The notes below the pieces were generated by a model. That model did not search any database, was not told the origin of the DNA, and saw only the letters and a program-made list of their open reading frames with translations. A DNA stretch of 45,341 nucleotides from an uncultured Bacilli bacterium (GTDB lineage Bacteria > Bacillota_I > Bacilli_A > RF39 > UBA660): the NCBI GenBank assembly GCA_947581715.1, contig CANPVK010000002.1, positions 1 through 45,341 on the forward strand. Reading direction: 5' to 3'. Below, piece by piece: positions 7,053 through 35,080 of this stretch. The position numbers were made by a program, and so were the translations under genes. The first letter of the stretch is position 1. The number at the start of each line of letters is the position of its first letter.

Positions 7053-7068
7053 TACTAGAATTTTTTTT
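7037..7068 (+). terminator. Bidirectional intrinsic terminator shared by the convergent AAA+ and cotJC-like genes
   Basis: 10-bp stem AAATTCTAGT/ACTAGAATTT with a 7-nt loop containing the 7050 stop codon. A-run upstream and T8 downstream. Confidence 0.65.
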
Positions 7069-7459
7069 CATTATCTCTTGGTTGTGGTAAATTTTCTTTA
7101 TAGTATTCGTATAGCTCTTTAAAGCGATTAAAGTGTACTATTTCACGTTGTCTTAACCATAATAAAGGACCAATTACATCTTGATCATTTGTTAAATCTA
7201 GTAGATGCTCGTATACTGCTCTTGCTTTTTGTTCTGCTGCCATATCTTCACTTAAATCTGCAAGTGGATCTCCTGTTGTTGCAAAATAGGTTACCGTGAA
7301 GGGAACTCCATTTGAGTCTGTTGGGTATAAAGCAGAATCATGTTCTGCATAATGTGTATCTAATCCGGCTGCCTTTATCTCTTCAATGGTTGCTCCTTTC
7401 ATTAATTGATAAATCATGGTACATATAATTTCAATATGTGCCAATTCTTCTGAACACAC
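7055..7459 (-). pseudogene. cotJC: 3' fragment of a cotJC-like (Mn-catalase/ferritin-like spore coat) gene, truncated by prophage insertion
   Basis: Translation SEELAHIEIICTMIY...GDPLADLSEDMAAEQKAR...LRQREIVHFNRF matches the C-terminal ~2/3 of CotJC as recalled. The expected ~55-60 N-terminal residues are absent. The reading frame runs into the integrase stop codon 9 nt upstream. Confidence 0.8.
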
Positions 7460-7468
7460 ACGATAGTT

Positions 7469-8992
7469 TTATAATTTTATATCAATATTTAATTCAAATT
7501 CTTCTTCATGTCCTTTTCCTCTAACGGTTTTTATATAATATATTTTTTTAATAATTGTTTTTAATAAATTATTTCTTTCTTCTGGAGATAAATTAGTAGA
7601 GTAGGTATCTAACACATTTTTTAGTTTAGGTACTATATCTTTTATTTTATCAATTTTCTTTTTCTTAGTTTGTTGGGAGTATTTATCTTTTTCGATTTCT
7701 AAGTTTTTTATTTGCTGTTTCAACGTTTTACTTCTTTCTAAAAAAGTAGTACTATCATAAATCTCTTGTTCCAACAAATCATAAGCTTTATTTAATTGAT
7801 TATTTAGTTTTTGAATTTCTTTTTCGATTAATTCTACGTTATTGCTATCAAATTCCTGCTGTATTGTTTCTTTTTTGTAGGATACTAGCATTTGCTCATA
7901 TTCTTTTAAAATTCCTTGTAGGGTACTTAAAATTGCATTTTCTATCAAATATAGATGAGAGCCAACATTTTTGCAATGAGGTAGGGGACATATTAAACCG
8001 TCTATATGTCCTGATCTATAATTTCTTCTTTGCATAGTTCTATGACAAATTCCACATTCTACAAGCCCAGCAAGTGGATTTTGTAATGTTAAATCTTTTT
8101 TTGTAGATTTTCCTTCTTTTATTTTAGAATTTTCGTTTGCGGTTTTCCACTGTTCTTCATCGATAATGGCTTCATGTAATCCTTTAACCAGAGTGTATTC
8201 TTTTTGTTTTGGTCTAGATTTATAGATAATACCATTTTTCATGGTTTTAACAGTTTTTCTACAATTCCATTTAATCATTCCATAATAAACTGGATTATGG
8301 ATAATATCTCTTATACTGGCCGATACCCATACTTCTGATTTTCTGGGTTTAGAACCTATTTTATTTAAGTGATTCGCAATATTAGAAGCGCCAATTCCTT
8401 GAGAGGCAAGTTGAAATATTATTTTAACAATCTTTTCTTCTTCTTCATTAACAACTAATTTAAATCCTTTTTGCCCTTGTAACTTTTCTTTGGAATATCC
8501 GTAAGGACAGGTTGAACCTACAAATTTACCCTCATTTACAGAAGATAATCTACCACGATTTAATCTTTTATTAATAATTTTATATTCTCTTCTTGACATA
8601 AAGAGCCCAAATTCAAAAAAGTCTTCATCTAGCTCATTATTTGGATCATAAACTTTTGAAGGTGTAACTATCTTTGTATTACCAAATTTAAAGGTTTTAG
8701 AAATTTTGCCTTGATCTTCGGTATCTCCACGAGCTAATCTATCAACATCTACTACATAAACTTCTTCGATGTTATTATTTTCAATTTCTTTTAATAATTC
8801 TTGTATTTTTGGTCTTGCTTCAATAGTTTCTCCAGATACAACTTCTTCATAATAATAATCTAAAATAACAGAGTTTTGTTCTGCTAATTTATTTATAATT
8901 TCTCTGTGTCTTTTTAGTGTATCTTGTCCCGTTACATTTTCTAATTCTAAATCAGCTCTAGATTTTCTTAAATAAGCTACTTTTTTTCTCAT
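7469..8992 (-). CDS. Large serine recombinase (phage integrase)
   Basis: N-terminal resolvase-type catalytic region VAYLRKSRAD...VYVVDVDRLARG, a recombinase domain, a Cys-rich zinc-ribbon region (CGICH...CPLPHC) and a C-terminal coiled coil, ~507 aa. ATG 8992 after GAGAGGAAG preferred over 9010. Confidence 0.9.
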   Translation of the reverse strand: MRKKVAYLRKSRADLELENVTGQDTLKRHREIINKLAEQNSVILDYYYEEVVSGETIEARPKIQELLKEIENNNIEEVYVVDVDRLARGDTEDQGKISKTFKFGNTKIVTPSKVYDPNNELDEDFFEFGLFMSRREYKIINKRLNRGRLSSVNEGKFVGSTCPYGYSKEKLQGQKGFKLVVNEEEEKIVKIIFQLASQGIGASNIANHLNKIGSKPRKSEVWVSASIRDIIHNPVYYGMIKWNCRKTVKTMKNGIIYKSRPKQKEYTLVKGLHEAIIDEEQWKTANENSKIKEGKSTKKDLTLQNPLAGLVECGICHRTMQRRNYRSGHIDGLICPLPHCKNVGSHLYLIENAILSTLQGILKEYEQMLVSYKKETIQQEFDSNNVELIEKEIQKLNNQLNKAYDLLEQEIYDSTTFLERSKTLKQQIKNLEIEKDKYSQQTKKKKIDKIKDIVPKLKNVLDTYSTNLSPEERNNLLKTIIKKIYYIKTVRGKGHEEEFELNIDIKL

Positions 8993-9019
8993 TATAGCAC
9001 TTCCTCTCATAAAATTTTA

Positions 9020-26778: not shown

Positions 26779-27173
26779 ATACTTTAAGGTGCATGAAAGG
26801 TTTATGTAAGATATGCCCAGAAGAAACCATATGTAAAGGTACATCAAAAGAATCAAAATATAAAAATAAGAAAGTTATAGTAAATGGAATAGAGTTTGAT
26901 TCTAAAAAAGAAGCTAATAGATATAAAGAACTGTTATTACTACAAAAAAGTGGAATCATAACAGATTTAAAAAGGCAAGTATCATACATATTGATACCTG
27001 CTTTTAATTTAAATAGAAAAAGATACAGGAGTATGAGCTATATAGCTGATTTTGTATATAAAGAGAATGGCAAAGAAGTAGTAGAAGACTGCAAAGGATT
27101 TAGAACTGAAATATACAAGATTAAAAAGAAGCTAATGGCTTACATTTATGAAATAGAAATTAGAGAGGTGTAG
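26775..27173 (+). CDS. DUF1064-family protein (putative endonuclease/resolvase-like)
   Basis: KYKNKKVIVNGIEFDSKKEANRYKELLLLQKSG.I.DL..Q..Y.L and YIADFVY...VEDCKG pattern typical of DUF1064. Confidence 0.7.
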   Translation: MNTLRCMKGLCKICPEETICKGTSKESKYKNKKVIVNGIEFDSKKEANRYKELLLLQKSGIITDLKRQVSYILIPAFNLNRKRYRSMSYIADFVYKENGKEVVEDCKGFRTEIYKIKKKLMAYIYEIEIREV

Positions 27174-27176
27174 ATT

Positions 27177-27299
27177 ATGAATCTAAACGAAGTAGCTTTA
27201 ATGATAATAGTAATAGCACCTTTTGTTTATCTGATGACAAATAATTCAATTAAATGTAAAAGACATTTAAATAGAAAAGAAAGGGGGAACGGAAAATAA
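27177..27299 (+). CDS. Mini membrane protein (40 aa)
   Basis: GAGAGGTG SD 6 nt upstream. Translation MNLNEVALMIIVIAPFVYLM... Confidence 0.35.
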   Translation: MNLNEVALMIIVIAPFVYLMTNNSIKCKRHLNRKERGNGK

Positions 27300-27336
27300 A
27301 TTATAAGTAGAGAATGATTGTTAGGAGTGATTTAAA

Positions 27337-27483
27337 ATGATAATTTTTAAAATATACTGTATTTTTATGATTGCCTCACTTATTATTGGAATATTAATGA
27401 GTTACAAAAAAAAGAAATCAAAACGAGATTTTTTGTTTTTATGTATGTTCATTCCAATACTTATTTATCTAATATTAAAATGA
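27337..27483 (+). CDS. Mini two-TM protein (48 aa)
   Basis: TAGGAGTG SD 7 nt upstream. Translation MIIFKIYCIFMIASLIIGILMSYKKKKSKRDFLFLCMFIPILIYLILK. Confidence 0.35.
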   Translation: MIIFKIYCIFMIASLIIGILMSYKKKKSKRDFLFLCMFIPILIYLILK

Positions 27484-27517
27484 AATGCATAATTAATATT
27501 TGATAACAGGTGATAGT

Positions 27518-28063
27518 ATGGCAAAATACAATTGGAAAGAATTAGAAAAAGAGTTCATTTTAGGAAATTATAAATCCGTTAGTTCTTTTTTGAGAGAAAA
27601 AAATATTCCATGTACTGGCAATACAAATAAGATCACAACAGGATGGAAAGGCAAAAAAGTAAAAAAAGAGCAAGAGAAAAGCAAAAAAGTGATAGAAAAG
27701 GTAATTGAAAAAGAAACTACCATTGAAGCCAATAAAAGAGTAAACACAAAAGATACCGCTATAAAGTTGTTAGAAAAGATTAATGATTCAATGGAAGAGT
27801 TAAATAAATACTTTTCTAGAAACAGTAAAAAGACAAAAACAGTAGAATATGACTATAAAGTGGGAAAACCAAAAAAAGAAACAACAGTGGATCAAGAAGA
27901 AATACAAGAATTTTATTCTATTGTTGATAGAAGTGGTCTTAAGCAATTAACTTCTGCCCTAAAAGATATAAATGATATATTAAATGGAACTAATTCACCA
28001 GAAACTTCAGAAACCTTTGCTCAAGAGATAGAAAAAGCATGGAGAAATAGAAATGAACAGTGA
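27518..28063 (+). CDS. terS: Terminase small subunit
   Basis: Immediately upstream of and overlapping terL. N-terminal HTH-like MAKYNWKELEKEFILGNYKSVSSFLREKNIP, then a basic coiled region. Confidence 0.7.
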   Translation: MAKYNWKELEKEFILGNYKSVSSFLREKNIPCTGNTNKITTGWKGKKVKKEQEKSKKVIEKVIEKETTIEANKRVNTKDTAIKLLEKINDSMEELNKYFSRNSKKTKTVEYDYKVGKPKKETTVDQEEIQEFYSIVDRSGLKQLTSALKDINDILNGTNSPETSETFAQEIEKAWRNRNEQ

Positions 28064-29441
28064 AGCATTAAGTTACTATATAGATAGACCTGTGGAATTT
28101 GCAGAAGATATATTAAAAGTAATTCCAACAAGTGATCAAAAAAAAGTGATGAATGATGTAGCCAAGCATTCTAGAGTATCTGTAAAAAGTGGTCATGGAG
28201 TAGGAAAAAGTGCATTAGAAAGTTGGATAATATGGTGGTATATCAGTACAAGACCATATCCTAAAATATTATGCACAGCACCTACCAAACATCAATTACA
28301 TGATATATTGTGGGCGGAGGTAAGTAAATGGAAAAGAAACAGCAAAGGATTAGACAAAGAATTTGAATGGACTAGTGAAAAAATATATTTAAAAGGTGCA
28401 CAAGAAGAATGGTTTGCAATTGCAAGAACGAGTAATAAACCAGATGCATTACAAGGAACTCATGCAGAACATGTATTAATTATTATAGATGAAGCAAGCG
28501 GAGTTCCAGATATAGTATTCGAGCCAGTGCTTGGTTCGTTAAGCACAAAAGATGCCAAATTATTGATGTGTGGAAATCCCACTCAATTATCTGGCTTTTT
28601 TTATGATTCACATACAAGTAAAGCTAGTATGTATCAAAGGCATACAATTGATGGTTCAAAAAGTGAAAGAGTAGATAAAGAATATGTAGCTATGATTATT
28701 GAAATGTTTGGAATAAATTCGGATGTATATCGTGTAAGAGTTGCAGGAGAATTTCCAAAGGCTAATCCAGATAGTTTTATTGGAAGAGACATTATTCGAA
28801 CAAACAATAATATCAAATTAGAAAATATTTATTCCATTGATTTAGGTGTGGATGTGGCTAGATTTGGAGATGATGAATCAGTAGTAGCAGAGTCATATAA
28901 CAAGAATACGATTCCAAAGCTACATACATTTAAGCACAATGATACTATGAAACTTACAGGACAGATTGTAAATATCATAAAAGGATTAAATATAAAATAT
29001 TCATCTATTGTAATTAAAGTAAAAATAGATTGTGATGGTTTAGGTGTAGGTGTTTATGACAGATTGCGAGAAGTTATTTCTCAAGCTAATTTAAAGGCAC
29101 AAGCAATTGAATGTCACTTTGGCGGAAAAGGTGGAAAAGTAAATCAAAATGAACCAATCGAATATAAGAATTCTACCGGTTTAATGTGGGGAAATATAAG
29201 AAGTAAATTTAAACACGAACAATTAGTCATTATTAATGATGAAGAATTAATAAATCAACTATCAAACAGAAAGTATTTTATTGAATCTGATGGAACAATT
29301 CGTCTTGAGAGAAAAGAAGACATGAAAAAAAGAGGAGTACATTCACCGGATAGAGCAGATGCAGTAGGGTTAGCATTATATGAACCAACTAGTAAAGTAC
29401 AAATTGACAATAATATGTTTATAAATATTCCAACAAAATAA
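28053..29441 (+). CDS. terL: Terminase large subunit
   Basis: Walker A SGHGVGKS, Walker B LIIIDEASG, C-terminal RNaseH-like nuclease region (GVDVARFGDDES...SPDRADA). 462 aa. Confidence 0.9.
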   Translation: MNSEALSYYIDRPVEFAEDILKVIPTSDQKKVMNDVAKHSRVSVKSGHGVGKSALESWIIWWYISTRPYPKILCTAPTKHQLHDILWAEVSKWKRNSKGLDKEFEWTSEKIYLKGAQEEWFAIARTSNKPDALQGTHAEHVLIIIDEASGVPDIVFEPVLGSLSTKDAKLLMCGNPTQLSGFFYDSHTSKASMYQRHTIDGSKSERVDKEYVAMIIEMFGINSDVYRVRVAGEFPKANPDSFIGRDIIRTNNNIKLENIYSIDLGVDVARFGDDESVVAESYNKNTIPKLHTFKHNDTMKLTGQIVNIIKGLNIKYSSIVIKVKIDCDGLGVGVYDRLREVISQANLKAQAIECHFGGKGGKVNQNEPIEYKNSTGLMWGNIRSKFKHEQLVIINDEELINQLSNRKYFIESDGTIRLERKEDMKKRGVHSPDRADAVGLALYEPTSKVQIDNNMFINIPTK

Positions 29442-29453
29442 GGAGTGATACAA

Positions 29454-31073
29454 ATGTTAAGATATAGTAAGGAAAAATTAGAACAAGAAAATAGCGTAAC
29501 AGCTATTTTTTTTAAAGCAAAAAAAGAATTAGAATCAAGAAAAAGATTATATGATGAATTTAGAAGAAAGTTAACAGATGAAGAACTTTCTAGTTTAAGT
29601 GATGAAGATATAAAAGTTCCGTTACAAAGATATTTATCAGTAATGGCAGTAGGTTTTTTTGCTGGTAAACCACCTATTTACAAAGTTCAAGCATATGATA
29701 AAGAAATAGACAAGCTAAATCAAGAATTATTTGATAAAAATCCAAATGATGAAAATAAAGTAAAAGAAATGGAATATATAATTAAGCATGTCACTGATTA
29801 CAATGATGACGGAAAAGAATTTTTCAGTTTAGCATTTGATTATTTTGTAAAAAGAGCAGGTTATGAGATTCTTTATAAAAACGAACAAAGCGAATATGTT
29901 TATTCAAAAAGTGATGCTTTAGAAACTGTAGCAATATGGGATTATTCAGTTCCTAAAAATTTAATTGGATTGTATAGGATAATAGAAACAACTCTTGCTA
30001 ATAATGAATATCAAATTATGGTTGAATTAACTACCGAAAAAGGAAAATTCTATTATATGGATACTCCTGAAAAGAGAAAGCTTTTTGGTACAAAAGATTA
30101 TGAAGCAAAATATGGAAAAGAACCATTATTTAAAGAAGATAAAAAAAAGCAAGAAAAACCAAAATGGGACGATCTTCAAATTGTAGCTATGGAAAATGAA
30201 CATGGGTTAAATATATTTGAAAGTGTTGATAGTCTTATAAAAGCATATGAAAGAGTTATTCAAAACTCAAGAAACACTTTTAAATATAATGATGAAGCTA
30301 TTCTTAAAGTGATGGGATATGTTCCAGAAAATCCTCTAATTATCGAAAATGAGGAAGGAAAACAGATGATTAATCCTGCAAGAGAATTGGAAGATCAATA
30401 TATGCTAGAATCTCGTGTTAGATATTTACAAGAAGGCGGGGATTTAGATTGGGTTATTAAAGAAGTAAATGATGGAGCTGTACAAAATCATAAGAAAACA
30501 TTAATGGATTTAATTTGTTTGTGTTCCTTTATTCCAAATATGACTGATTTAGGATTTACACAAGCAGATAATAATAGTGCATTAGAAAAGAAGTTCTTTT
30601 CACTACAACAATTAATTGCTGATGCAGAGGCGGATTTTAAAATGGGATTATTAAGACGCTGGGAGCTAATTTTTAATAAATTTAATAAAGACAAAGGCAA
30701 AGATTATGATTTTAGAAATGTTCAAGTTATATTACAAAGAAATATGCCTAGTGATTCATCTAGTGAAACAAGTAGAGCATTATCTTTAAGAGATTTATTA
30801 AGTGATGAAACGATTATCGGAATGTTACCAGATGATCTTGATCCAAAAAATGAAATTGCTAAAAAGAAAAGTGAAGCAGAAACTAATCTTGAAGATAATC
30901 AGGAATTAATGAAAAAATTTAGTCAAAATAACAAAGATGAAAATGAAGACAATAATATAGAAAAAGATACGCAAGAACAGATAAAAACAACACCAGGAGA
31001 AGTAGTAAAAGGTTCTAAAGAATCAGAAAAAAAGCCAGATGCTATACAAGATTTAGATAAATTGAAGAAGTGA
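29454..31073 (+). CDS. Portal protein (SPP1 gp6-like)
   Basis: ~540 aa directly after terL, with an acidic C-terminal tail. ATG 29454 after AAGGAG. Confidence 0.85.
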   Translation: MLRYSKEKLEQENSVTAIFFKAKKELESRKRLYDEFRRKLTDEELSSLSDEDIKVPLQRYLSVMAVGFFAGKPPIYKVQAYDKEIDKLNQELFDKNPNDENKVKEMEYIIKHVTDYNDDGKEFFSLAFDYFVKRAGYEILYKNEQSEYVYSKSDALETVAIWDYSVPKNLIGLYRIIETTLANNEYQIMVELTTEKGKFYYMDTPEKRKLFGTKDYEAKYGKEPLFKEDKKKQEKPKWDDLQIVAMENEHGLNIFESVDSLIKAYERVIQNSRNTFKYNDEAILKVMGYVPENPLIIENEEGKQMINPARELEDQYMLESRVRYLQEGGDLDWVIKEVNDGAVQNHKKTLMDLICLCSFIPNMTDLGFTQADNNSALEKKFFSLQQLIADAEADFKMGLLRRWELIFNKFNKDKGKDYDFRNVQVILQRNMPSDSSSETSRALSLRDLLSDETIIGMLPDDLDPKNEIAKKKSEAETNLEDNQELMKKFSQNNKDENEDNNIEKDTQEQIKTTPGEVVKGSKESEKKPDAIQDLDKLKK

Positions 31074-31078
31074 TATAA

Positions 31079-32572
31079 ATGAATAATAACATTGTAGAAA
31101 ATAGATGGAAAAATACACGAAAAGAATTAAATAAGTTTAGAAATGAATATTTGAAGTTAAATAAAAATACTCAAGATAAAATACAAGACTTGTTTAATTC
31201 TTTAAATATCACTTATCAAGATTTGTCTAAAATTATTTCTAAAAGAGATCAAGATAGATTAGAAAGAAAAATAGATAGTTGGAAGCAGAAAAAAATATTT
31301 AAAGGATACTTTAAATATAGAGTAGAAGAGTTAATGAAAGGACAAATCAATTATCGAAATCTAATAGAAATACTCTTATATGGCATTGAAATTGAAGAAC
31401 AGGAAGAAAATAAAGACAGCATATACAACTTATTTATAAATTGTTCCTTAGATTGCTATAATCAAGGTAGAAAAGACTTAAAAAAGAAAGAAAAAAGTAT
31501 ATTACCACAAGTATTACTAACAACCTTTTTAATGACAGCAGTTAACGGAACAATGTGGAAAGATTATATTGATGCGTATTATTTAACTAATATGCAGGAA
31601 ATACAAAAAAGATATTTGATTTCATTACAGCAAGGTAAGATTCCAGATATATATGATGATACTTGGCAAAGAACATTTGAAATCCAACAAAATAGATTAA
31701 TAGATATAAATAACACTAAATATAGTGGTGGTATTGATAAATATGTAACTACTTATGGAAATCTTGCTTATTTAGAAGCAAGTGATAATGATAATCAACA
31801 AGTGAAATTTGTATCAGATTTATGTGATAATGTTACTGAAATGTGTTCTTATATGGATGGAATGATTTTCAATACTAAAAATAGGAATGTATTTAAGAGA
31901 CCGATAGGAAAAACTGTTAAAGATTTAACATTACAAACAATAGATGTAATAGGACTAGTTTTAGGTATTAATTTACCACCTATTGAAGAACATTTTCATT
32001 GGTGTCATAGTGTATTAACATATATAACCGATAAAAGCACAGATGAATTGAGAGAAGAGATCTTCATTAAAAATGGTTTAAGTGCAAATAACAAATATAC
32101 AAAAGAAAAACATAAGCCACCAATATTATTAGAAGAGATTGATATAACTAATGAGCAAAATATTTATAACACATTAGAAAAATATGAAAAAGTCATAAAG
32201 AATGATATAATAGAAAATGCAATAGTGATTACTGAAGAAGGAAAAGTATATCAATGTTTTGGAAATGAAACTAATGTATGGCCTGATATTGATCTAGGAG
32301 AAAAGTTATTGAATTCATATGTAACACATAATCACCCCAAGAAAGAGACTAATTATAGTTTCAGTGAAGCTGATATACGATTATTTGAAAAATTTAATTT
32401 ATCAAAATTAAGAGGTGTAGATGATAAATATATCTACGAATTTGATAGAAATAAACAAAATATTTTGAAAAATCCTACGTTTGATGATAATGAATTGGGT
32501 TTTGAACATATTAAAAGTATTCAATATGCTATTGATCATAATATCTTTTATAAGAGGTGGGAAAATGACTAG
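31079..32572 (+). CDS. MuF/SPP1 gp7-like minor head protein with C-terminal RadC/JAB-like extension
   Basis: MuF signature SDLCDNVTEMCSYMDGMIF (residues ~247-264). C-terminal ~120 aa contain E-N-AIVITEEG...VTHNHPKKETNYSFSEADI...LRGVD, resembling the HNHPSG..PS..D JAMM/RadC motif. Confidence 0.8.
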   Translation: MNNNIVENRWKNTRKELNKFRNEYLKLNKNTQDKIQDLFNSLNITYQDLSKIISKRDQDRLERKIDSWKQKKIFKGYFKYRVEELMKGQINYRNLIEILLYGIEIEEQEENKDSIYNLFINCSLDCYNQGRKDLKKKEKSILPQVLLTTFLMTAVNGTMWKDYIDAYYLTNMQEIQKRYLISLQQGKIPDIYDDTWQRTFEIQQNRLIDINNTKYSGGIDKYVTTYGNLAYLEASDNDNQQVKFVSDLCDNVTEMCSYMDGMIFNTKNRNVFKRPIGKTVKDLTLQTIDVIGLVLGINLPPIEEHFHWCHSVLTYITDKSTDELREEIFIKNGLSANNKYTKEKHKPPILLEEIDITNEQNIYNTLEKYEKVIKNDIIENAIVITEEGKVYQCFGNETNVWPDIDLGEKLLNSYVTHNHPKKETNYSFSEADIRLFEKFNLSKLRGVDDKYIYEFDRNKQNILKNPTFDDNELGFEHIKSIQYAIDHNIFYKRWEND

Positions 32573-32756
32573 AGAAGAACTGGAAAAAGAGTATCAACGT
32601 GAATTAAAAGAATTAATAGATTACCATAGTGAACAAATAAAAAATATGACACAAGAAGAAGAATATGAATATATAAAAGAAAATAAATTAAACGAAAAAA
32701 TAGAAGAAATGAAAAAAAGATATCAAGAAAAATATAAAGCACTCGAAAATAAATAG
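32565..32756 (+). CDS. Small acidic coiled-coil protein (63 aa)
   Basis: ATG 32565 after GAGGTGGG, overlapping the MuF stop. Confidence 0.45.
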   Translation: MTREELEKEYQRELKELIDYHSEQIKNMTQEEEYEYIKENKLNEKIEEMKKRYQEKYKALENK

Positions 32757-32768
32757 AGTGCTTTTATT
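32736..32768 (+). terminator. Weak terminator-like hairpin
   Basis: AAAGCACTC-(11 nt)-GAGTGCTTT spanning the stop codon. Poor U-tail (TTATTAT). Confidence 0.3.
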
Positions 32769-32781
32769 ATGGAGGAAATGC

Positions 32782-33045
32782 ATGAAAGAAAAATTAGAAA
32801 CTGGTGCAATGTTAAATCCAAAATGTCAAGAATGCTTTAAGCACGATACTTGTAATAATAAAACATTATGCGCTTTTCTGATACCAAAGGATATTAAAAA
32901 AAATAGAAGTTTTATTGATTTACAAGAAGCATTATCTGTTCCAATAAAATTAACACCTGAGATGATTCAAAAAGAAATGATTAAAAGAGTATGTGAAATA
33001 AATATAGGCATTAATAATGCAAATTTAATGGGTAATAAAAATTAA
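32782..33045 (+). CDS. Small Cys-containing hypothetical protein
   Basis: ATG 32782 after GGAGGAAATGC. CQECFKHDTCNNKTLC motif. Confidence 0.45.
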   Translation: MKEKLETGAMLNPKCQECFKHDTCNNKTLCAFLIPKDIKKNRSFIDLQEALSVPIKLTPEMIQKEMIKRVCEINIGINNANLMGNKN

Positions 33046-33063
33046 TCACTATCTTATAGGTAG

Positions 33064-33338
33064 TGTATCAATGAATTTTTTATGTGAGCATAGGGAGAGT
33101 ATGCAGTAAGAAACAGTTTTTACTATAAAGCTCAATAGTAGAATAGGCTGACTTAAAGATGTGTGGTGCAAGTCCACAAGAACATTGAGTAAATGGGATT
33201 AAATTCATTGGTACAGTGCTTATAAAATAGCACTCCGACATTTATGTCGGTTAGCTCATCTACCAAAGTTGTAGATAGAGGTCTAGTTATCGATAAAATG
33301 TCGATAACTATTAAGTCGATAGAAATATCGGCTTTTTT
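33064..33338 (+). ncRNA. Candidate structured RNA element within the head operon (class unknown)
   Basis: ORF-poor 380-nt gap. A 15-bp long-range helix (33064-78 with 33201-15) encloses three or more hairpins, followed by four consecutive hairpins and a GAAA-loop terminator. Confidence 0.4.
33313..33338 (+). terminator. Intrinsic terminator inside the late operon
   Basis: AAGTCGATA-GAAA-TATCGGCTT (one G-U pair) followed by T6. Confidence 0.75.
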
Positions 33339-33425
33339 GGTGTGGTTTTACCGTAACAAGACTGGATTAATCAGCCTAACTGATAGTATTGGATATTTTC
33401 TATCCGTAAAAGAAAGGAAGAGATT

Positions 33426-34031
33426 ATGAAGAATAGTCAAAAAAGATTACCATTAAATATTCAGTATTTCGCTGATGAAAATGGCGAACAAGAGGTACCT
33501 TCTACCGAAAAAGAAGAACAGGTTGAAACTCCTATCGAAAAGGCTGAAGAAGAGAAAAAAGAAAAAACTTATACTCGTGCTGAAGTAGAAAAAATTAAAG
33601 CTTTAGAAAGAGCAAATTGGGAAAAAGAACAAGCTGACAAGATCGCAGAAAGTCAAAAATTAGCCCAAATGGATGAAATTCAAAAGAAAGATTATGAAAT
33701 TGATCGTTTAACCAAAGAATTAGCTAAACGAGATGCAGACAAGCAAGCTGATGATTTGAGAAATGAAGCAATTAAGCAAGCAAGTTCTAAGGGGATTCCG
33801 CTTGAAGTAATGATGGCACTAGATTACAAGAATGAAACTGCTGATAGTATAGCAAACAAAATAGAAGTTTATACAAAGGCATTTCAAACTGTAAGAACAA
33901 ATGCAATAGATGATTACTCAAAAGAAAAAGCCCCACAAACAGGAGATAAAACTCCAGGAGAAAAAACATTGAGTGATTGTAAAAGTTATCAAGATTTTGA
34001 TGAATATTACAAAACTCATCCAAAAGGATAG
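33426..34031 (+). CDS. Scaffolding protein
   Basis: Lies between the MuF-like and capsid genes. N-terminal PLNIQYFAD motif common to Firmicutes phage scaffold/head proteins. Charged coiled-coil composition. Confidence 0.75.
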   Translation: MKNSQKRLPLNIQYFADENGEQEVPSTEKEEQVETPIEKAEEEKKEKTYTRAEVEKIKALERANWEKEQADKIAESQKLAQMDEIQKKDYEIDRLTKELAKRDADKQADDLRNEAIKQASSKGIPLEVMMALDYKNETADSIANKIEVYTKAFQTVRTNAIDDYSKEKAPQTGDKTPGEKTLSDCKSYQDFDEYYKTHPKG

Positions 34032-34057: not shown

Positions 34058-35080
34058 ATGCCAAAATTTGATAAAAAATCTTTTAATGCAGAAGCTTTCG
34101 GTAAATATATGGAAACAGTTCCAAGAGAAAGACTAAATGCATTAATCAAAGCTAATATTTTTAGAACTGACGAAAACATTAATAATACATTCAGTTCACA
34201 AACTGGAACTGCTTATGCAACAATTCCTATGTATGGAAGATTAAAAGGAAAACCAGTCAATTATGATGGCCAAACTAAGTATGATGATGCTAAAAAACTA
34301 AACACTTACGAAAGAGGTGTAGTAGTAATTGGTAGAAAGGATAAATTTAGTGAAGATGACTTTTCTTACGATGTTACTGGCGGTGTAGATTTCATGAGCC
34401 AAGTAGGAACTCAATTAGGAGACTATTGGGATACTGCTAATGAAGATACTTTAATTTCTATTATTAAAGGTTTATTTGCATCAACTGGAACAGGTGGACA
34501 AGAATTTGCTAAAAACCATGCTTTTGAAATTCAAGATGGTGAATTATCTACTACTACTTTAAATACTGCTATTCAAAAAGCTTGTGGAGATAGAAAACAA
34601 AAATTCACCTTAGCTATTATGAATAGTGCACAAGCTAAAGATTTAGAGAATGCTAAACTATTAACATTCATGACTTATAATGATGCTAATGGATTAGAAG
34701 TTCAATTAAATTTAGCTCAATGGAACGGAAAATTAGTAATCGTTGATGATAGTATTACTTACGATGCTGAAACAGAAGATTATGTAATTTATATTCTTGG
34801 TGCTGGTATGTTCGATTATAAAGATGTAGGAGCAAAAGTTCCATACGAAATGGATCGTGATGCAGATAATGATAGAGATGTGTTATATTCTCGTGAAAGA
34901 ATCGTTATGGCACCATATGGATTCACATATCTAAAGAAAAATCAAGCTACTTTATCACCAAAAGATGAAGAGTTAGCAAATGGTGAAAACTGGGATTTAG
35001 TATCTGATGGGGATAATAATTATATTAACCATAAAGAAATTGCTATTGCTAAAATTGTTATTAAAAAAAAAGTAGTGTAG
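34058..35080 (+). CDS. Major capsid protein
   Basis: 340 aa directly after the scaffold gene. AAAGAAAGGAAG SD shared with the scaffold and tail tube genes. Size and position fit an HK97-fold MCP. Confidence 0.8.
   Translation: MPKFDKKSFNAEAFGKYMETVPRERLNALIKANIFRTDENINNTFSSQTGTAYATIPMYGRLKGKPVNYDGQTKYDDAKKLNTYERGVVVIGRKDKFSEDDFSYDVTGGVDFMSQVGTQLGDYWDTANEDTLISIIKGLFASTGTGGQEFAKNHAFEIQDGELSTTTLNTAIQKACGDRKQKFTLAIMNSAQAKDLENAKLLTFMTYNDANGLEVQLNLAQWNGKLVIVDDSITYDAETEDYVIYILGAGMFDYKDVGAKVPYEMDRDADNDRDVLYSRERIVMAPYGFTYLKKNQATLSPKDEELANGENWDLVSDGDNNYINHKEIAIAKIVIKKKVV
35063..35071 (+). promoter_or_regulatory. A9 slippery run (candidate -1 programmed frameshift site)
   Basis: In-frame AAA AAA AAA three codons before the MCP stop. 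The -1 frame opens exactly here, with its last stop at 35062-64. Confidence 0.5.

What the first reader, a model, noticed from the sequence alone, without database searches (positions are those of the whole stretch)
33046..33425. ORF-free, hairpin-dense ~300-nt element with a 15-bp long-range helix and a terminator inside the head-morphogenesis operon
Genes in this operon otherwise abut or overlap, but a 380-nt gap separates the last gene of the MuF-side cluster (ends 33045) from the scaffold gene. The gap shows extensive nested complementarity. (a) TGTATCAATGAATTT (33064-78) pairs with AAATTCATTGGTACA (33201-15): 15 bp, 14 Watson-Crick plus one G-U, enclosing 122 nt. (b) Inside that helix are GCATA-GGGAGAG-TATGC (33088-104), an 8-bp stem with an ACAG loop (33105-24), and CTCAAT/ATTGAG (33131-36 with 33184-89) around TGTGG-TGCAAGT-CCACA (33162-78). 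(c) Four back-to-back hairpins follow (33215-34, 33235-50, 33258-76, and a 10-bp stem at 33284-310). (d) Last is a GAAA-tetraloop intrinsic terminator with T6 (33313-38). The segments TATCGA / GTCGATA / GTCGATA / TATCGG (33288-93, 33300-06, 33315-21, 33326-31) allow mutually exclusive pairings, which is attenuator-like. I see no convincing promoter upstream, so this is probably a cis element of the late mRNA. Possible roles are terminator/antiterminator control, a put/EAR-like processive antitermination RNA, a processing site or a ribozyme, gating scaffold, capsid and tail expression. I could not match it to any riboswitch or ribozyme consensus I know.
Basis: partly seen in the sequence, partly recalled or inferred. 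Interest (0 to 1): 0.75.

Follow-up and report, generated by a model that had tools for sequence, protein, structure and literature searches.

The report
Modular structured RNA cassette in prophage
The gap before the capsid-scaffold gene holds a real, conserved, folded RNA: a tRNA-like core in a standard hairpin-and-helix frame that related uncultivated phages reuse for dozens of unrelated RNA inserts, which suggests a phage way of making small stable RNAs that is not in Rfam and whose function is unknown.

Summary
Window 33047-33234 (+) is a 188-nt structured module. Eight other phage or prophage sequences carry the same core. Across the nine, 96% of cells pair and 27 of 53 pairs show compensatory changes. 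The G.U pairs sit on the + strand. Nothing in Rfam 15 matches.

The new result is that this core is a cargo inside a generic frame: a 5' hairpin (P0), a long helix (P1) and a 3' hairpin (Ppost). I found 51 distinct cassettes with this frame in uncultivated low-GC phages, carrying 36 unrelated cargo types, some of them tRNA-like. The frame has two conserved, mutually exclusive folds of nearly equal energy.

The terminator at 33313-38 is a conserved unit that also follows unrelated cargos and true tRNAs, and no antiterminator is conserved. The same cargo sits before scaffold, HNH, terminase or tRNA genes, so it is not a scaffold-specific switch.

Best reading, inferred: a co-transcribed processing and stability cassette that releases a stable tRNA-like small RNA.

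The parts
32738..32769 (+). T1: terminator-like hairpin AGCACTC-(11 nt)-GAGTGCT followed by TTTATTA, at the end of ORF 32481-32756. In relatives it sits immediately before the cassette.
   Evidence: Read from the sequence. The same hairpin directly abuts P0 in L029, L059, L063, L078 and L083.
33047..33065 (+). P0: 5' frame hairpin CACTATC-TTATA-GGTAGTG (7 bp, with one conserved U.G).
   Evidence: Across 50 frames, 97.2% of cells pair and 7 of 8 pairs show compensatory changes. Pairs verified.
33064..33078 (+). P1 5' arm of the 15-bp long-range helix. It overlaps P0 by 2 nt.
   Evidence: Pairs listed. P1 core pairs in 96.8-100% of cells, with 8 of 12 and 11 of 12 pairs compensatory.
33088..33104 (+). 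P2: hairpin GCATA-GGGAGAG-TATGC. It is nearly invariant in sequence.
   Evidence: Four of 5 pairs never vary. The loop consensus is [G/C]G-N-AGAG.
33107..33155 (+). P3: long three-segment arm (33107-10/33152-55, 33114-17/33147-50, 33118-26/33135-43) with the 8-nt loop AAAGCUCA.
Evidence: Helices 5 and 6 pair in 97-100% of cells, with 8 of 13 pairs compensatory. RNAalifold predicts the third segment, which covaries.
33130..33134 (+). Pseudoknot 5' strand (GCUCA, in the P3 loop). It pairs with 33186-90.
   Evidence: 100% of cells pair. Two of 5 pairs are compensatory and 2 vary on one side (helix 7). Pairs listed.
33162..33178 (+). P4: T-arm-like hairpin TGTGG-TGCAAGT-CCACA (5-bp stem, 7-nt loop).
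   Evidence: Invariant core, with one compensatory closing pair. ARAGORN calls a tRNA-Arg(CCT) in L026 949-1023 that has a closely matching T-arm (GGTGG-TGCAAGT-CCACC; same loop and inner four stem pairs).
33183..33195 (+). P5: mini-hairpin (CA...UG here, CAG...CUG in relatives). Its loop carries the pseudoknot 3' strand UGAGU (33186-90).
   Evidence: RNAalifold pairs at columns 149-151 / 160-162 and helix 7.
33201..33215 (+). P1 3' arm.
33215..33234 (+). Ppost: 3' frame hairpin AGTGCT-TATAAAAT-AGCACT. Its 5' arm and loop can instead pair with the P0 loop and 3' arm (form B).
   Evidence: Hairpin pairs. The form B extension pairs in 96% of cells in 9 cargo relatives and 96.4% in 50 frames. Form A is -44.1 and form B -46.7 kcal/mol.
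33235..33310 (+). Three private hairpins: 33235-50, 33255-80 and 33284-310. The last one duplicates the terminator's GTCGATA segment.
   Evidence: Fold (z -7.6). No homologue in 90 related loci. Absent between Ppost and the terminator in L003, L029 and L035.
33313..33340 (+). T2: intrinsic terminator AAGTCGATA-GAAA-TATCGGCTT followed by a T-run.
   Evidence: Terminator scan. The identical 25-mer occurs in 17 IMG/VR contigs. Variants keep the stem through compensatory changes (L059, L063, L086).
33341..33425 (+). Leader of the scaffold gene, with the RBS AAAGGAAGAG. It is not significantly structured here.
   Evidence: z = 0.18. No Rfam hit. In L003 the corresponding leader holds GP20-b RNA.

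Best explanation
The gap encodes a modular RNA cassette that is transcribed as part of the late operon. It has no promoter of its own.

**Anatomy (shown).** The cassette has two layers.
- The cargo (33079-33200) is a compact, pseudoknotted, multi-helix RNA with a tRNA-type T-arm. It is conserved in sequence and structure in eight other phages, whatever the neighbouring genes are.
- The frame (P0 hairpin, P1 helix, Ppost hairpin) is a generic scaffold. Related phages use it around at least 36 unrelated cargos.
- Some cargos are real tRNA bodies. In those, the inner 7 bp of P1 form the acceptor stem and an insert replaces the anticodon arm.
- The frame has two conserved, near-isoenergetic folds. 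Form B is one duplex of about 26-30 bp. Form A is P1 flanked by two hairpins.

**Mechanism (inferred).**
- On the nascent late transcript the frame folds into the long duplex.
- A host nuclease cuts it. This would be a double-strand-specific endonuclease of the RNase III type, or RNase P / RNase Z for the tRNA-like cargos.
- The cut releases the cargo as a small stable RNA whose ends are paired.
- P0 then re-forms as a 3' cap on the upstream portal/MuF-side mRNA. Ppost re-forms as a 5' cap on the downstream RNA.
- T2 ends or protects RNA that is not read through. Scaffold and capsid expression needs read-through of T2.
- The released cargo most likely acts in trans through its tRNA-like elbow, on a tRNA-binding host or phage factor. 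That target is unknown.
For: **Structure is real and at RNA level.**
- In 9 sequences 96.4% of cells pair and 27 of 53 pairs have compensatory changes. No shuffle out of 500 does as well, and slid controls give 30-47%.
- RNAalifold recovers the same helices independently.
- In 50 frames there are 124 G.U cells against 30 non-pairs of any kind.
- The + strand folds at -53.9 kcal/mol and the - strand at -35.6.

**The cargo does not depend on context.** The same core lies before scaffold genes (window, L003, L029, L035), before or after HNH genes (L030, L014, L025), before a terminase (L026) and before a tRNA (L041), with or without T2.

**The frame is generic.**
- There are 51 distinct cassettes and 36 cargo clusters.
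- Several other cargos also occur both in arrays near terminase genes and at the scaffold-upstream site.

**Link to tRNA.**
- The L061 9015-9138 cargo scores 46.8 bits on Rfam tRNA. Its acceptor stem is the inner part of P1, it has D and T arms, and a 67-nt insert replaces the anticodon arm.
- The L014 cargo at 66-185 scores 32.8 bits.
- T-arm-like hairpins occur in 13 of 51 cassettes, against 0.6 expected from shuffles.
- At the same site other phages carry a true tRNA (L045) or a T-arm minihelix (L046, L049) just before T2.
- tRNAs abut cassettes in L069, L075 and L086.

**Both frame folds are conserved.**
- Form A: P0 pairs in 97.2% of cells, with 7 of 8 pairs compensatory.
- Form B extension: 96.4% of cells pair, with 6 of 10 pairs compensatory.
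- The energies are -44.1 and -46.7 kcal/mol.

**No general promoter.** The best sigma-70 score upstream of cassettes averages 8.0, against 7.67 at control positions.
Against: - There is no expression, end-mapping or cleavage data. Every processing step is inferred.
- Most cargos (about 30 of 36 types) have no recognisable T-arm, so tRNA-enzyme processing cannot be general.
- In the window's cargo the T-arm is 22 nt away from the P1 3' strand. It does not abut it as in a tRNA.
- The window's cargo fails the tRNA models.
- The conserved complementarity of the P0 and Ppost loops could reflect a kissing contact rather than the long duplex.
- The frame alone would also fit an RNA polymerase-binding or protein-binding antitermination signal.
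- Two terminators (T1, T2) just ahead of the most highly expressed genes remain unexplained unless late transcription resists termination.
Confidence: 0.45

Rival explanations
1. Processive antitermination or a nut-like signal. The conserved frame (P0 hairpin, P1, Ppost) is a cis-acting RNA that binds RNA polymerase, as put and EAR RNAs do, or binds a phage N-like protein. The polymerase then reads through T2 and later terminators. The cargo would be a tolerated insertion at the tip of P1.
For: - Cassettes sit where such signals are needed: at the head of the late operon before the small terminase gene, and directly upstream of the conserved terminator T2.
- The frame is conserved in sequence, including the hairpin loops.
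- No promoter follows T2 in the window, so the scaffold gene needs read-through.
Against: - Cargo sequence, unpaired nucleotides and the pseudoknot are strongly conserved across different frames and contexts. A passive insert would not be.
- Cassettes occur in tandem arrays of 2-4.
- Cassettes also occur next to tRNAs or at the ends of gene blocks, where no downstream terminator needs to be read through.
- No Rfam antitermination family (such as EAR) matches.
Confidence: 0.15
2. A pure cis mRNA-punctuation element. The cassette only serves to cut the late polycistronic RNA and to cap the two products, as RNase III sites do in T7 and SP82. This uncouples low-copy portal/MuF expression from high-copy scaffold and capsid expression. 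The excised cargo has no function of its own.
For: - The potential duplex is 26-30 bp long.
- Both the long-duplex fold and the two-hairpin fold are conserved.
- The site lies between the MuF-side genes and the scaffold and capsid genes in many phages.
Against: - It does not explain the near-invariant unpaired nucleotides and the pseudoknot of the cargo.
- It does not explain why the same cargos recur in different frames and sites.
- It does not explain the enrichment of tRNA-like cargos.
Confidence: 0.2
3. One reading: a riboswitch or attenuator. The folded core senses a ligand or factor and switches T2 on or off to gate scaffold, capsid and tail expression.
For: - The core looks like an aptamer, with conserved junction nucleotides, and is followed by a terminator.
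- In the window, TATCGA/GTCGATA segments allow alternative pairings.
Against: - No conserved antiterminator exists. The best duplex between upstream sequence and the T2 arms is no better than shuffled sequence, and its position is inconsistent.
- The alternative pairings lie in hairpins private to the window.
- T2 also follows unrelated cargos, tRNAs and minihelices.
- The same core occurs without T2 in 5 of 9 members.
- No riboswitch model matches.
Confidence: 0.05
4. A DNA-level element: a MITE-like mobile insertion or a recombination hot-spot. Its 30-35 bp terminal inverted repeats are the frame, and the RNA structure is incidental. A decayed tRNA gene is a variant of this idea.
For: - The flanking inverted repeats are long.
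- The cassette occupies a known variable 'moron' slot. Cultured relatives carry small ORFs or a short gap there.
- Cargos appear shuffled between frames and sites.
- The 25-nt T2 is identical in phages whose proteins have diverged.
Against: - Helix arms differ in sequence between copies but stay complementary, which is not how transposase-bound ends behave.
- G.U pairs outnumber all mismatches 124 to 30 and sit on one strand.
- Orientation is always co-directional with the genes.
- The interiors are unrelated between copies, unlike a MITE family.
- The cargo has a pseudoknot with covariation.
Confidence: 0.1

Closest known systems
GP20-a / GP20-b RNA motifs (Rfam RF02991, RF03003) and the six further candidate RNAs upstream of GP20 scaffold genes (Fremin & Bhatt 2023, PMC10690425)
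   Same: - They are candidate structured RNAs in Caudoviricetes, located just upstream of the head-scaffold gene.
- In L003 a GP20-b RNA (52.2 bits) lies about 30 nt after the same terminator that follows this cassette.
   Different: - The window matches neither model, even at E<=10.
- Those motifs lie within 25 nt of the start codon (PMC10690425). This cassette is upstream of a terminator and 190-380 nt from the start codon.
- This cassette also occurs away from scaffold genes.
- I could not check whether it is among the 8495 unnamed candidates of that catalogue, because no supplement text is held.
tRNA, tRNA-like small phage RNAs, and the engineered 'tRNA scaffold' for expressing recombinant RNA (the last two from my own knowledge)
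   Same: - It has a terminal helix formed by the 5' and 3' ends, and a multi-way junction.
- Its T-arm has a 5-bp stem and a 7-nt loop, as in a phage tRNA-Arg.
- Sister cassettes are real tRNA bodies that carry an insert in place of the anticodon arm. That is the design of the engineered tRNA scaffold.
   Different: - The window's cargo is not detected by the Rfam tRNA model or by ARAGORN.
- P1 has 15 bp, not 7.
- The loop of the 'anticodon-like' arm is locked in a pseudoknot.
- A 22-nt segment separates the T-arm from the P1 3' strand.
- No CCA is encoded.
RNase III processing sites of phages T7 and SP82, and rRNA processing stalks (own knowledge)
   Same: - These are long intergenic duplexes formed by sequences that flank an RNA to be released.
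- They are repeated at several sites in a phage transcript.
- Cleavage leaves hairpins that stabilise the products.
   Different: - Cleavage is not shown here.
- The frame has a conserved alternative two-hairpin fold.
- The frame carries highly diverse, complex cargos.
Processive antitermination RNAs (HK022 put, Bacillus EAR) and lambda nut
   Same: They are cis RNA elements inside operons, upstream of intrinsic terminators.
   Different: - There is no sequence or structure match.
- This element has a variable cargo, occurs in tandem arrays, and is found in places with no downstream terminator.
ROOL and GOLLD RNAs
   Same: They are structured RNAs of unknown function in prophages of low-GC bacteria, often near tRNAs and probably co-transcribed with them (PMC5737381). 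Many relatives here come from rumen or gut samples.
   Different: - They are much larger (about 580-800 nt, from my own knowledge).
- No Rfam match is found here.
- This element has a frame-plus-cargo design that they lack.
MITEs such as Correia elements, and the phi29 pRNA three-way junction (own knowledge)
   Same: - MITEs have terminal inverted repeats that fold in mRNA.
- pRNA has a three-way junction with two mutually complementary hairpin loops. Here the loops are UUUAUA and UAUAAA.
   Different: - Unlike a MITE family, the interiors are unrelated between copies and the structure is strand-specific.
- There is no match to the pRNA family, and a normal terminase is present.

Membership tests
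tRNA (Rfam RF00005 / ARAGORN) | Match to the tRNA covariance model or to ARAGORN (cloverleaf with 7-bp acceptor stem, D arm, 7-nt anticodon loop and T arm). | tested here: not met
   ARAGORN finds no gene in the window. No tRNA hit at E<=10 in 32900-33600. Sister cargos do match: L061 at 46.8 bits and L014 at 32.8 bits.
tRNA (Rfam RF00005 / ARAGORN) | T-arm: a 5-bp stem with a 7-nt T-loop. | tested here: met
   33162-78 is TGTGG-TGCAAGT-CCACA. The loop and stem type are the same as in the tRNA-Arg(CCT) that ARAGORN calls in L026 949-1023.
GP20-a / GP20-b RNA (RF02991 / RF03003) | Match to the covariance model. | tested here: not met
   No hit at gathering score or at E<=10. GP20-b is found only in L003, downstream of the terminator.
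GP20-a / GP20-b RNA (RF02991 / RF03003) | Position directly upstream of a phage scaffold (GP20-type) gene. | tested here: inconclusive
   The window, L003, L029 and L035 are upstream of scaffold genes. L014, L025, L026, L030 and L041 are not.
Riboswitch / transcription attenuator | A conserved expression platform: an antiterminator that competes with the terminator and is coupled to the sensor helix. | tested here: not met
   Upstream pairing with the T2 arms is no better than shuffled sequence and falls at inconsistent positions in 21 loci. The alternative pairings are private to the window.
Riboswitch / transcription attenuator | Match to a known aptamer class. | tested here: not met
   Rfam 15 gives nothing credible.
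Intrinsic (rho-independent) terminator | A G+C-containing hairpin followed by a T-run, conserved as a structure. | tested here: met
   The scan hit at 33313-34 has 9 pairs, a GAAA loop and T6. The 25-mer is identical in 17 contigs. Variants show compensatory changes.
Self-cleaving ribozymes (hammerhead, twister, hatchet, pistol, HDV-like and others) | Match to a family model. | tested here: not met
   No hit at E<=10. The CUGAUGA string in some P1 arms is base-paired, not an open catalytic core.
Processive antitermination RNA (put / EAR) | Homology to a described family. | tested here: not met
   No Rfam match.
Processive antitermination RNA (put / EAR) | The element makes RNA polymerase resistant to downstream terminators. 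| not testable with these tools
   This needs transcription assays.
RNase III-type processing stalk | A duplex of about two helical turns or more, formed by sequences flanking the released RNA. | tested here: met
   Arms are 30 nt and 83% complementary before counting G.U pairs. The form B extension pairs in 96% of cells in 50 frames.
RNase III-type processing stalk | Endonucleolytic cleavage within the duplex. | not testable with these tools
   This needs end mapping or in vitro cleavage.
MITE / transposon remnant | Copies share both their ends and their interior, and the structure is strand-neutral. | tested here: not met
   There are 36 unrelated interiors among 51 cassettes. G.U cells number 124 against 30 non-pairs, on one strand. 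Arms covary rather than stay constant.

The most novel reading that the evidence does not exclude
Phages of low-GC anaerobes have an RNA display system. It rests on one conserved, bistable three-way-junction scaffold whose two hairpin loops are mutually complementary (UUUAUA / UAUAAA). Dozens of interchangeable cargo RNAs are swapped in and out of the scaffold by recombination at the frame. The cargos, including this tRNA-elbow mimic, would be trans-acting decoys or effectors aimed at host tRNA-binding enzymes or tRNA-targeting defence nucleases. This would be a natural counterpart of the engineered tRNA scaffold and a new class of phage counter-defence or host-takeover RNAs.
Probability: 0.15. 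Interest if true: 0.85.

Novelty: new variant of a known kind. Interest (0 to 1): 0.65.

Why it matters
Phage genomes are densely coding, so a 190-nt non-coding module kept in sequence and fold across unrelated gene neighbourhoods is probably doing something.

The wider result matters more than the single element. One frame is reused for at least 36 different RNA inserts, some of them tRNA bodies with an insert in place of the anticodon arm. This points to a general, so far unnamed way for phages of Clostridium-like hosts to produce small stable RNAs from late transcripts.

If the model is right, three things follow:
- It gives a handle for finding many new phage RNAs at once, by searching for the frame and reading the cargo.
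- It offers a natural design for expressing RNA in Gram-positive anaerobes.
- It makes testable how these phages set very different expression levels for neighbouring head genes.

If the cargos are tRNA mimics, they bear on the current question of how phages counter tRNA-targeting host defences.

Tried and rejected
- **Rfam, gathering threshold, whole window:** nothing.
- **Rfam, E<=10, 32900-33600:** only sub-threshold chance hits. An sroB match at 26.5 bits, against a gathering score of 44, merely aligns the terminator.
- **ARAGORN on the window:** no tRNA or tmRNA.
- **blastn of the gap, of 5 kb around it, and of a consensus-like cassette against 50,697 cultured phage genomes:** no match.
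- **Closest cultured phages by capsid protein:** C. tetani phiCT453A at 52% and C. difficile phiCD38-2 at 45%. They carry small ORFs or a 129-nt gap at this site. They have no cassette and no covariance-model hit.
- **Scaffold-protein search in IMG/VR:** one distant locus, without the element.
- **Exact-protein look-up to find the source contig:** not on record.
rejected on covariation.
- **Attenuator or antiterminator:** rejected.
- **Own sigma-70 promoter:** not general.
- **Hammerhead idea,** from the CUGAUGA string in some P1 arms: rejected, because that string is paired inside P1.
- **A UGGG/CCUA tertiary pair:** rejected. CCUA instead pairs with UAGG as the third segment of P3.
- **RNA-handling enzymes in the prophage (Ro, RtcB, ligase, CCA-adding enzyme):** none found among the 20 early-region ORFs scanned.
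- **Literature searches** for a described equivalent: nothing.
- **Fremin & Bhatt supplements:** not held, so their catalogue could not be checked.
Full report
**Setting.** The window has about 27% G+C. It is a prophage next to host genes typA, lspA, an RluA-family pseudouridine synthase and a rhomboid protease.
- Prophage early genes: a serine integrase at 7469-9010 (-), a DnaD-like loader, Erf, an exonuclease, SSB, NinB and a Holliday-junction resolvase.
- Late operon: large terminase 28053-29441, portal 29445-31073, a 497-aa protein, and two small ORFs ending at 32756 and 33045. Then comes the 380-nt gap, followed by the scaffold gene 33426-34031 (phrog_172, DUF4355) and the major capsid gene 34058-35080.
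- The closest cultured phages by capsid protein infect Clostridium tetani (52%) and C. difficile (45%).

**Checking the observation.**
- The 15-bp helix 33064-78 / 33201-15 has 14 Watson-Crick pairs and one U.G. A mechanical repeat search extends it to 30-nt arms, 33049-78 / 33201-30, 83% complementary.
- The whole gap folds at -111.3 kcal/mol (z -6.3).
- The 188-nt module 33047-33234 folds at -53.9 kcal/mol on the + strand (z -4.7) and -35.6 on the - strand (z -3.0).
- The four downstream hairpins, including the terminator, give z -7.6. The last 87 nt before the start codon are not structured (z 0.18).
- The terminator scan finds 33313-34 followed by a T-run.

**Homologues.** Nothing in Rfam 15 matches, and no cultured phage genome matches. 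Exact-word scans with conserved strings found the same element in:
- IMG/VR contigs L003, L014, L025 and L026;
- two genome bins, L029 and L030;
- metagenome contigs L035 and L041, plus duplicates.

A MAFFT alignment of the nine distinct sequences (A2), made without any structure, supports the following fold.
- P0: hairpin 33047-65.
- P1: the 15-bp helix.
- P2: the nearly invariant GCATA-GGGAGAG-TATGC.
- P3: a long arm, 33107-33155, in three segments.
- P4: the T-arm-like hairpin at 33162-78.
- A 5-bp pseudoknot between the P3 loop (33130-34) and 33186-90. The latter sits in the loop of a mini-hairpin, P5.
- Ppost: hairpin 33215-34.

On this alignment 96.4% of cells pair and 27 of 53 pairs carry compensatory changes. 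No shuffle out of 500 reaches these values, and sliding the partners by 1-3 columns drops pairing to 30-47%. RNAalifold recovers the same helices on its own and adds the third P3 segment and P5. The unpaired junction nucleotides are almost invariant.

**Frame and cargo.** A covariance model built from A2 (R1) also hit shorter and longer sequences that share only the ends. Scans with the P0 hairpin and with the terminator 25-mer brought in 47 more phage contigs. Profile searches for the left and right ends then gave 51 distinct cassettes.
- All have P0, P1 and Ppost, with interiors of about 13 to 170 nt.
- The interiors fall into 36 unrelated clusters.
- Across 50 frames, P0 pairs in 97.2% of cells (7 of 8 pairs compensatory) and the P1 core in 96.8% (11 of 12).
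- G.U cells number 124 against 30 non-pairs of any kind, so the structure is read from the gene strand.
- Cassettes are co-directional with their neighbours.

A second pairing is conserved as well. The P0 loop and 3' arm pair with the Ppost 5' arm and loop in 96.4% of cells, and the outer three P1 pairs that compete with P0 pair in 98%.
- The two folds are mutually exclusive.
- In the window they differ by only 2.6 kcal/mol: form A is -44.1 and form B is -46.7 kcal/mol.
- The loop-loop part of form B could equally be a kissing contact.

**Link to tRNA.** Some cargos are tRNA bodies.
- In L061 9015-9138, the Rfam tRNA model (46.8 bits) aligns the inner 7 bp of P1 as the acceptor stem, followed by a D arm, a 67-nt insert in place of the anticodon arm, and a canonical T arm that abuts the P1 3' strand.
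- L014 66-185 is similar, at 32.8 bits.
- T-arm-like hairpins occur in 13 of 51 cassettes, against 0.6 expected.
- At the scaffold-upstream site, other phages carry a true tRNA (L045) or a T-arm minihelix (L046, L049) immediately before the same terminator.
- tRNA genes abut cassettes in L069, L075 and L086.
- A tRNA-Arg(CCT) in L026 has a closely matching T-arm, with the same TGCAAGT loop and inner stem pairs.
- The window's own cargo, however, is not recognised as a tRNA.

**Context.** Cassettes prefer two sites.
- One is between the MuF-side genes and the scaffold gene. There they usually lie after a terminator-like hairpin, T1, and before T2 and a leader of about 90 nt. In L003 that leader contains GP20-b RNA.
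- The other is as tandem arrays of 2-4 between an HNH gene and the terminase genes.

The window's cargo occurs at both kinds of site, before an HNH gene (L030) and before a tRNA (L041). T2 is adjacent in 3 of 9 members. No sigma-70 promoter is generally present upstream.

**What this excludes.**
- A scaffold-specific riboswitch or attenuator is unlikely. T2 is shared by unrelated cargos. No upstream segment pairs with its arms better than chance. The TATCGA/GTCGATA alternatives lie in three hairpins with no counterpart in any relative.
- A DNA-level mobile element is unlikely because of strand asymmetry, arm covariation and unrelated interiors.
- Known ribozymes and antitermination RNAs do not match.

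**Most likely mechanism (inferred, not shown).**
- The cassette is transcribed within the late operon.
- The frame's long duplex serves as a recognition and cleavage site for a host nuclease. This would be of the RNase III type for the duplex, or RNase P / RNase Z for the tRNA-bodied cargos.
- Cleavage frees the cargo as an end-paired stable RNA.
- The P0 and Ppost hairpins then cap the 3' end of the upstream mRNA and the 5' end of the downstream RNA. This would explain why both folds are conserved.
- The cargo, with its conserved junctions, pseudoknot and T-loop, then acts independently of its genomic neighbours.

I put 0.45 on this combined model. I put 0.20 on a purely cis punctuation role, 0.15 on frame-mediated antitermination, 0.10 on a DNA-level or selfish origin, and 0.05 on a riboswitch.

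**Novelty.**
- The element is absent from Rfam 15 and from cultured phage genomes.
- I found no description of it in the literature I could search.
- Structured RNAs upstream of scaffold genes are known as a kind: GP20-a and GP20-b, plus six more (PMC10690425).
- That paper's catalogue of 8495 unnamed candidates from IMG/VR may include parts of this element, and I could not check it.
- I therefore rate it a new variant of a known kind. The frame-plus-cargo architecture and its bistable scaffold are the surprising part.

Noticed in passing
window 32738-32769: A terminator-like hairpin (AGCACTC...GAGTGCT followed by TTTATTA) overlaps the stop codon of ORF 32481-32756. In L029, L059, L063, L078 and L083 the same hairpin directly abuts the P0 hairpin of a cassette. 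In the window a small ORF has been inserted between them.
   Followed up: partly
window 32782-33045; L035 3884-4186: An 87-aa Cys-rich ORF (CQECFKHDTCNNKTLC) has no family hit and lies just before the cassette. L035 has a 100-aa Cys-rich ORF (CSNCKNNC) in the same place. It may be a small zinc-binding moron protein.
   Followed up: no
window 33284-33338: The 12-bp hairpin at 33284-310 looks like a local duplication of the terminator's 5' arm (GTCGATAA / GTCGATAG). No relative has it.
   Followed up: yes
window 7055-9010: A 134-aa ORF matches only positions 64-190 of a 268-position manganese-catalase (CotJC-like) model. It abuts the serine integrase, so the prophage seems to have inserted into that gene.
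   Followed up: no
L005, L006-L009, L012, L015, L017-L020, L024 (e.g. L005 5136-5152, - strand): The identical 17-mer TGTGGTGCAAGTCCACA forms a T-arm-like hairpin in a different, Y-shaped element: the helix GGGGUG/CAUCCC encloses a second hairpin. It lies about 20 nt upstream of a 260-aa P-loop (DnaB/RecA-like) gene in a dozen higher-GC IMG/VR contigs. It has no Rfam hit.
   Followed up: partly
L026 949-1023; L045 about 8070-8145 and 8180-8220; L046 and L049 just before the terminator: In L026 a tRNA-Arg(CCT) with the TGCAAGT T-loop sits directly before a large terminase gene. At the scaffold-upstream site, a true tRNA (L045) or T-arm minihelices (stem + GTRGG-TGCAATT-CCTAC; L046, L049) take the place of the cassette immediately before the same terminator.
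   Followed up: partly
many cassettes, e.g. L025 1001-1153, L061 8573-8735, L071 875-1040: Many unrelated cargos share an inner closing helix, AAAGG...CCTTT, just inside P1, often as AAAGGTWA. This may be a further conserved layer of the frame or a protein-binding motif.
   Followed up: no
frame alignment A3, columns 23 and 62 (window 33063 and 33216): A G opposite G mismatch is conserved in the long-duplex fold of nearly all 50 frames. It could be a recognition or cleavage-positioning feature.
   Followed up: no
L003 1381-1444 and the leaders after the terminator in L043-L058: The leaders of about 90 nt between the shared terminator and the scaffold start codon fall into a few conserved types. 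One is Rfam GP20-b. The window's leader (33341-33425) matched none of them and is not significantly structured.
   Followed up: partly
window 27173-27500: The other sizeable gap, before the putative small terminase gene, has no cassette. It holds two short ORFs that look like small membrane peptides.
   Followed up: no
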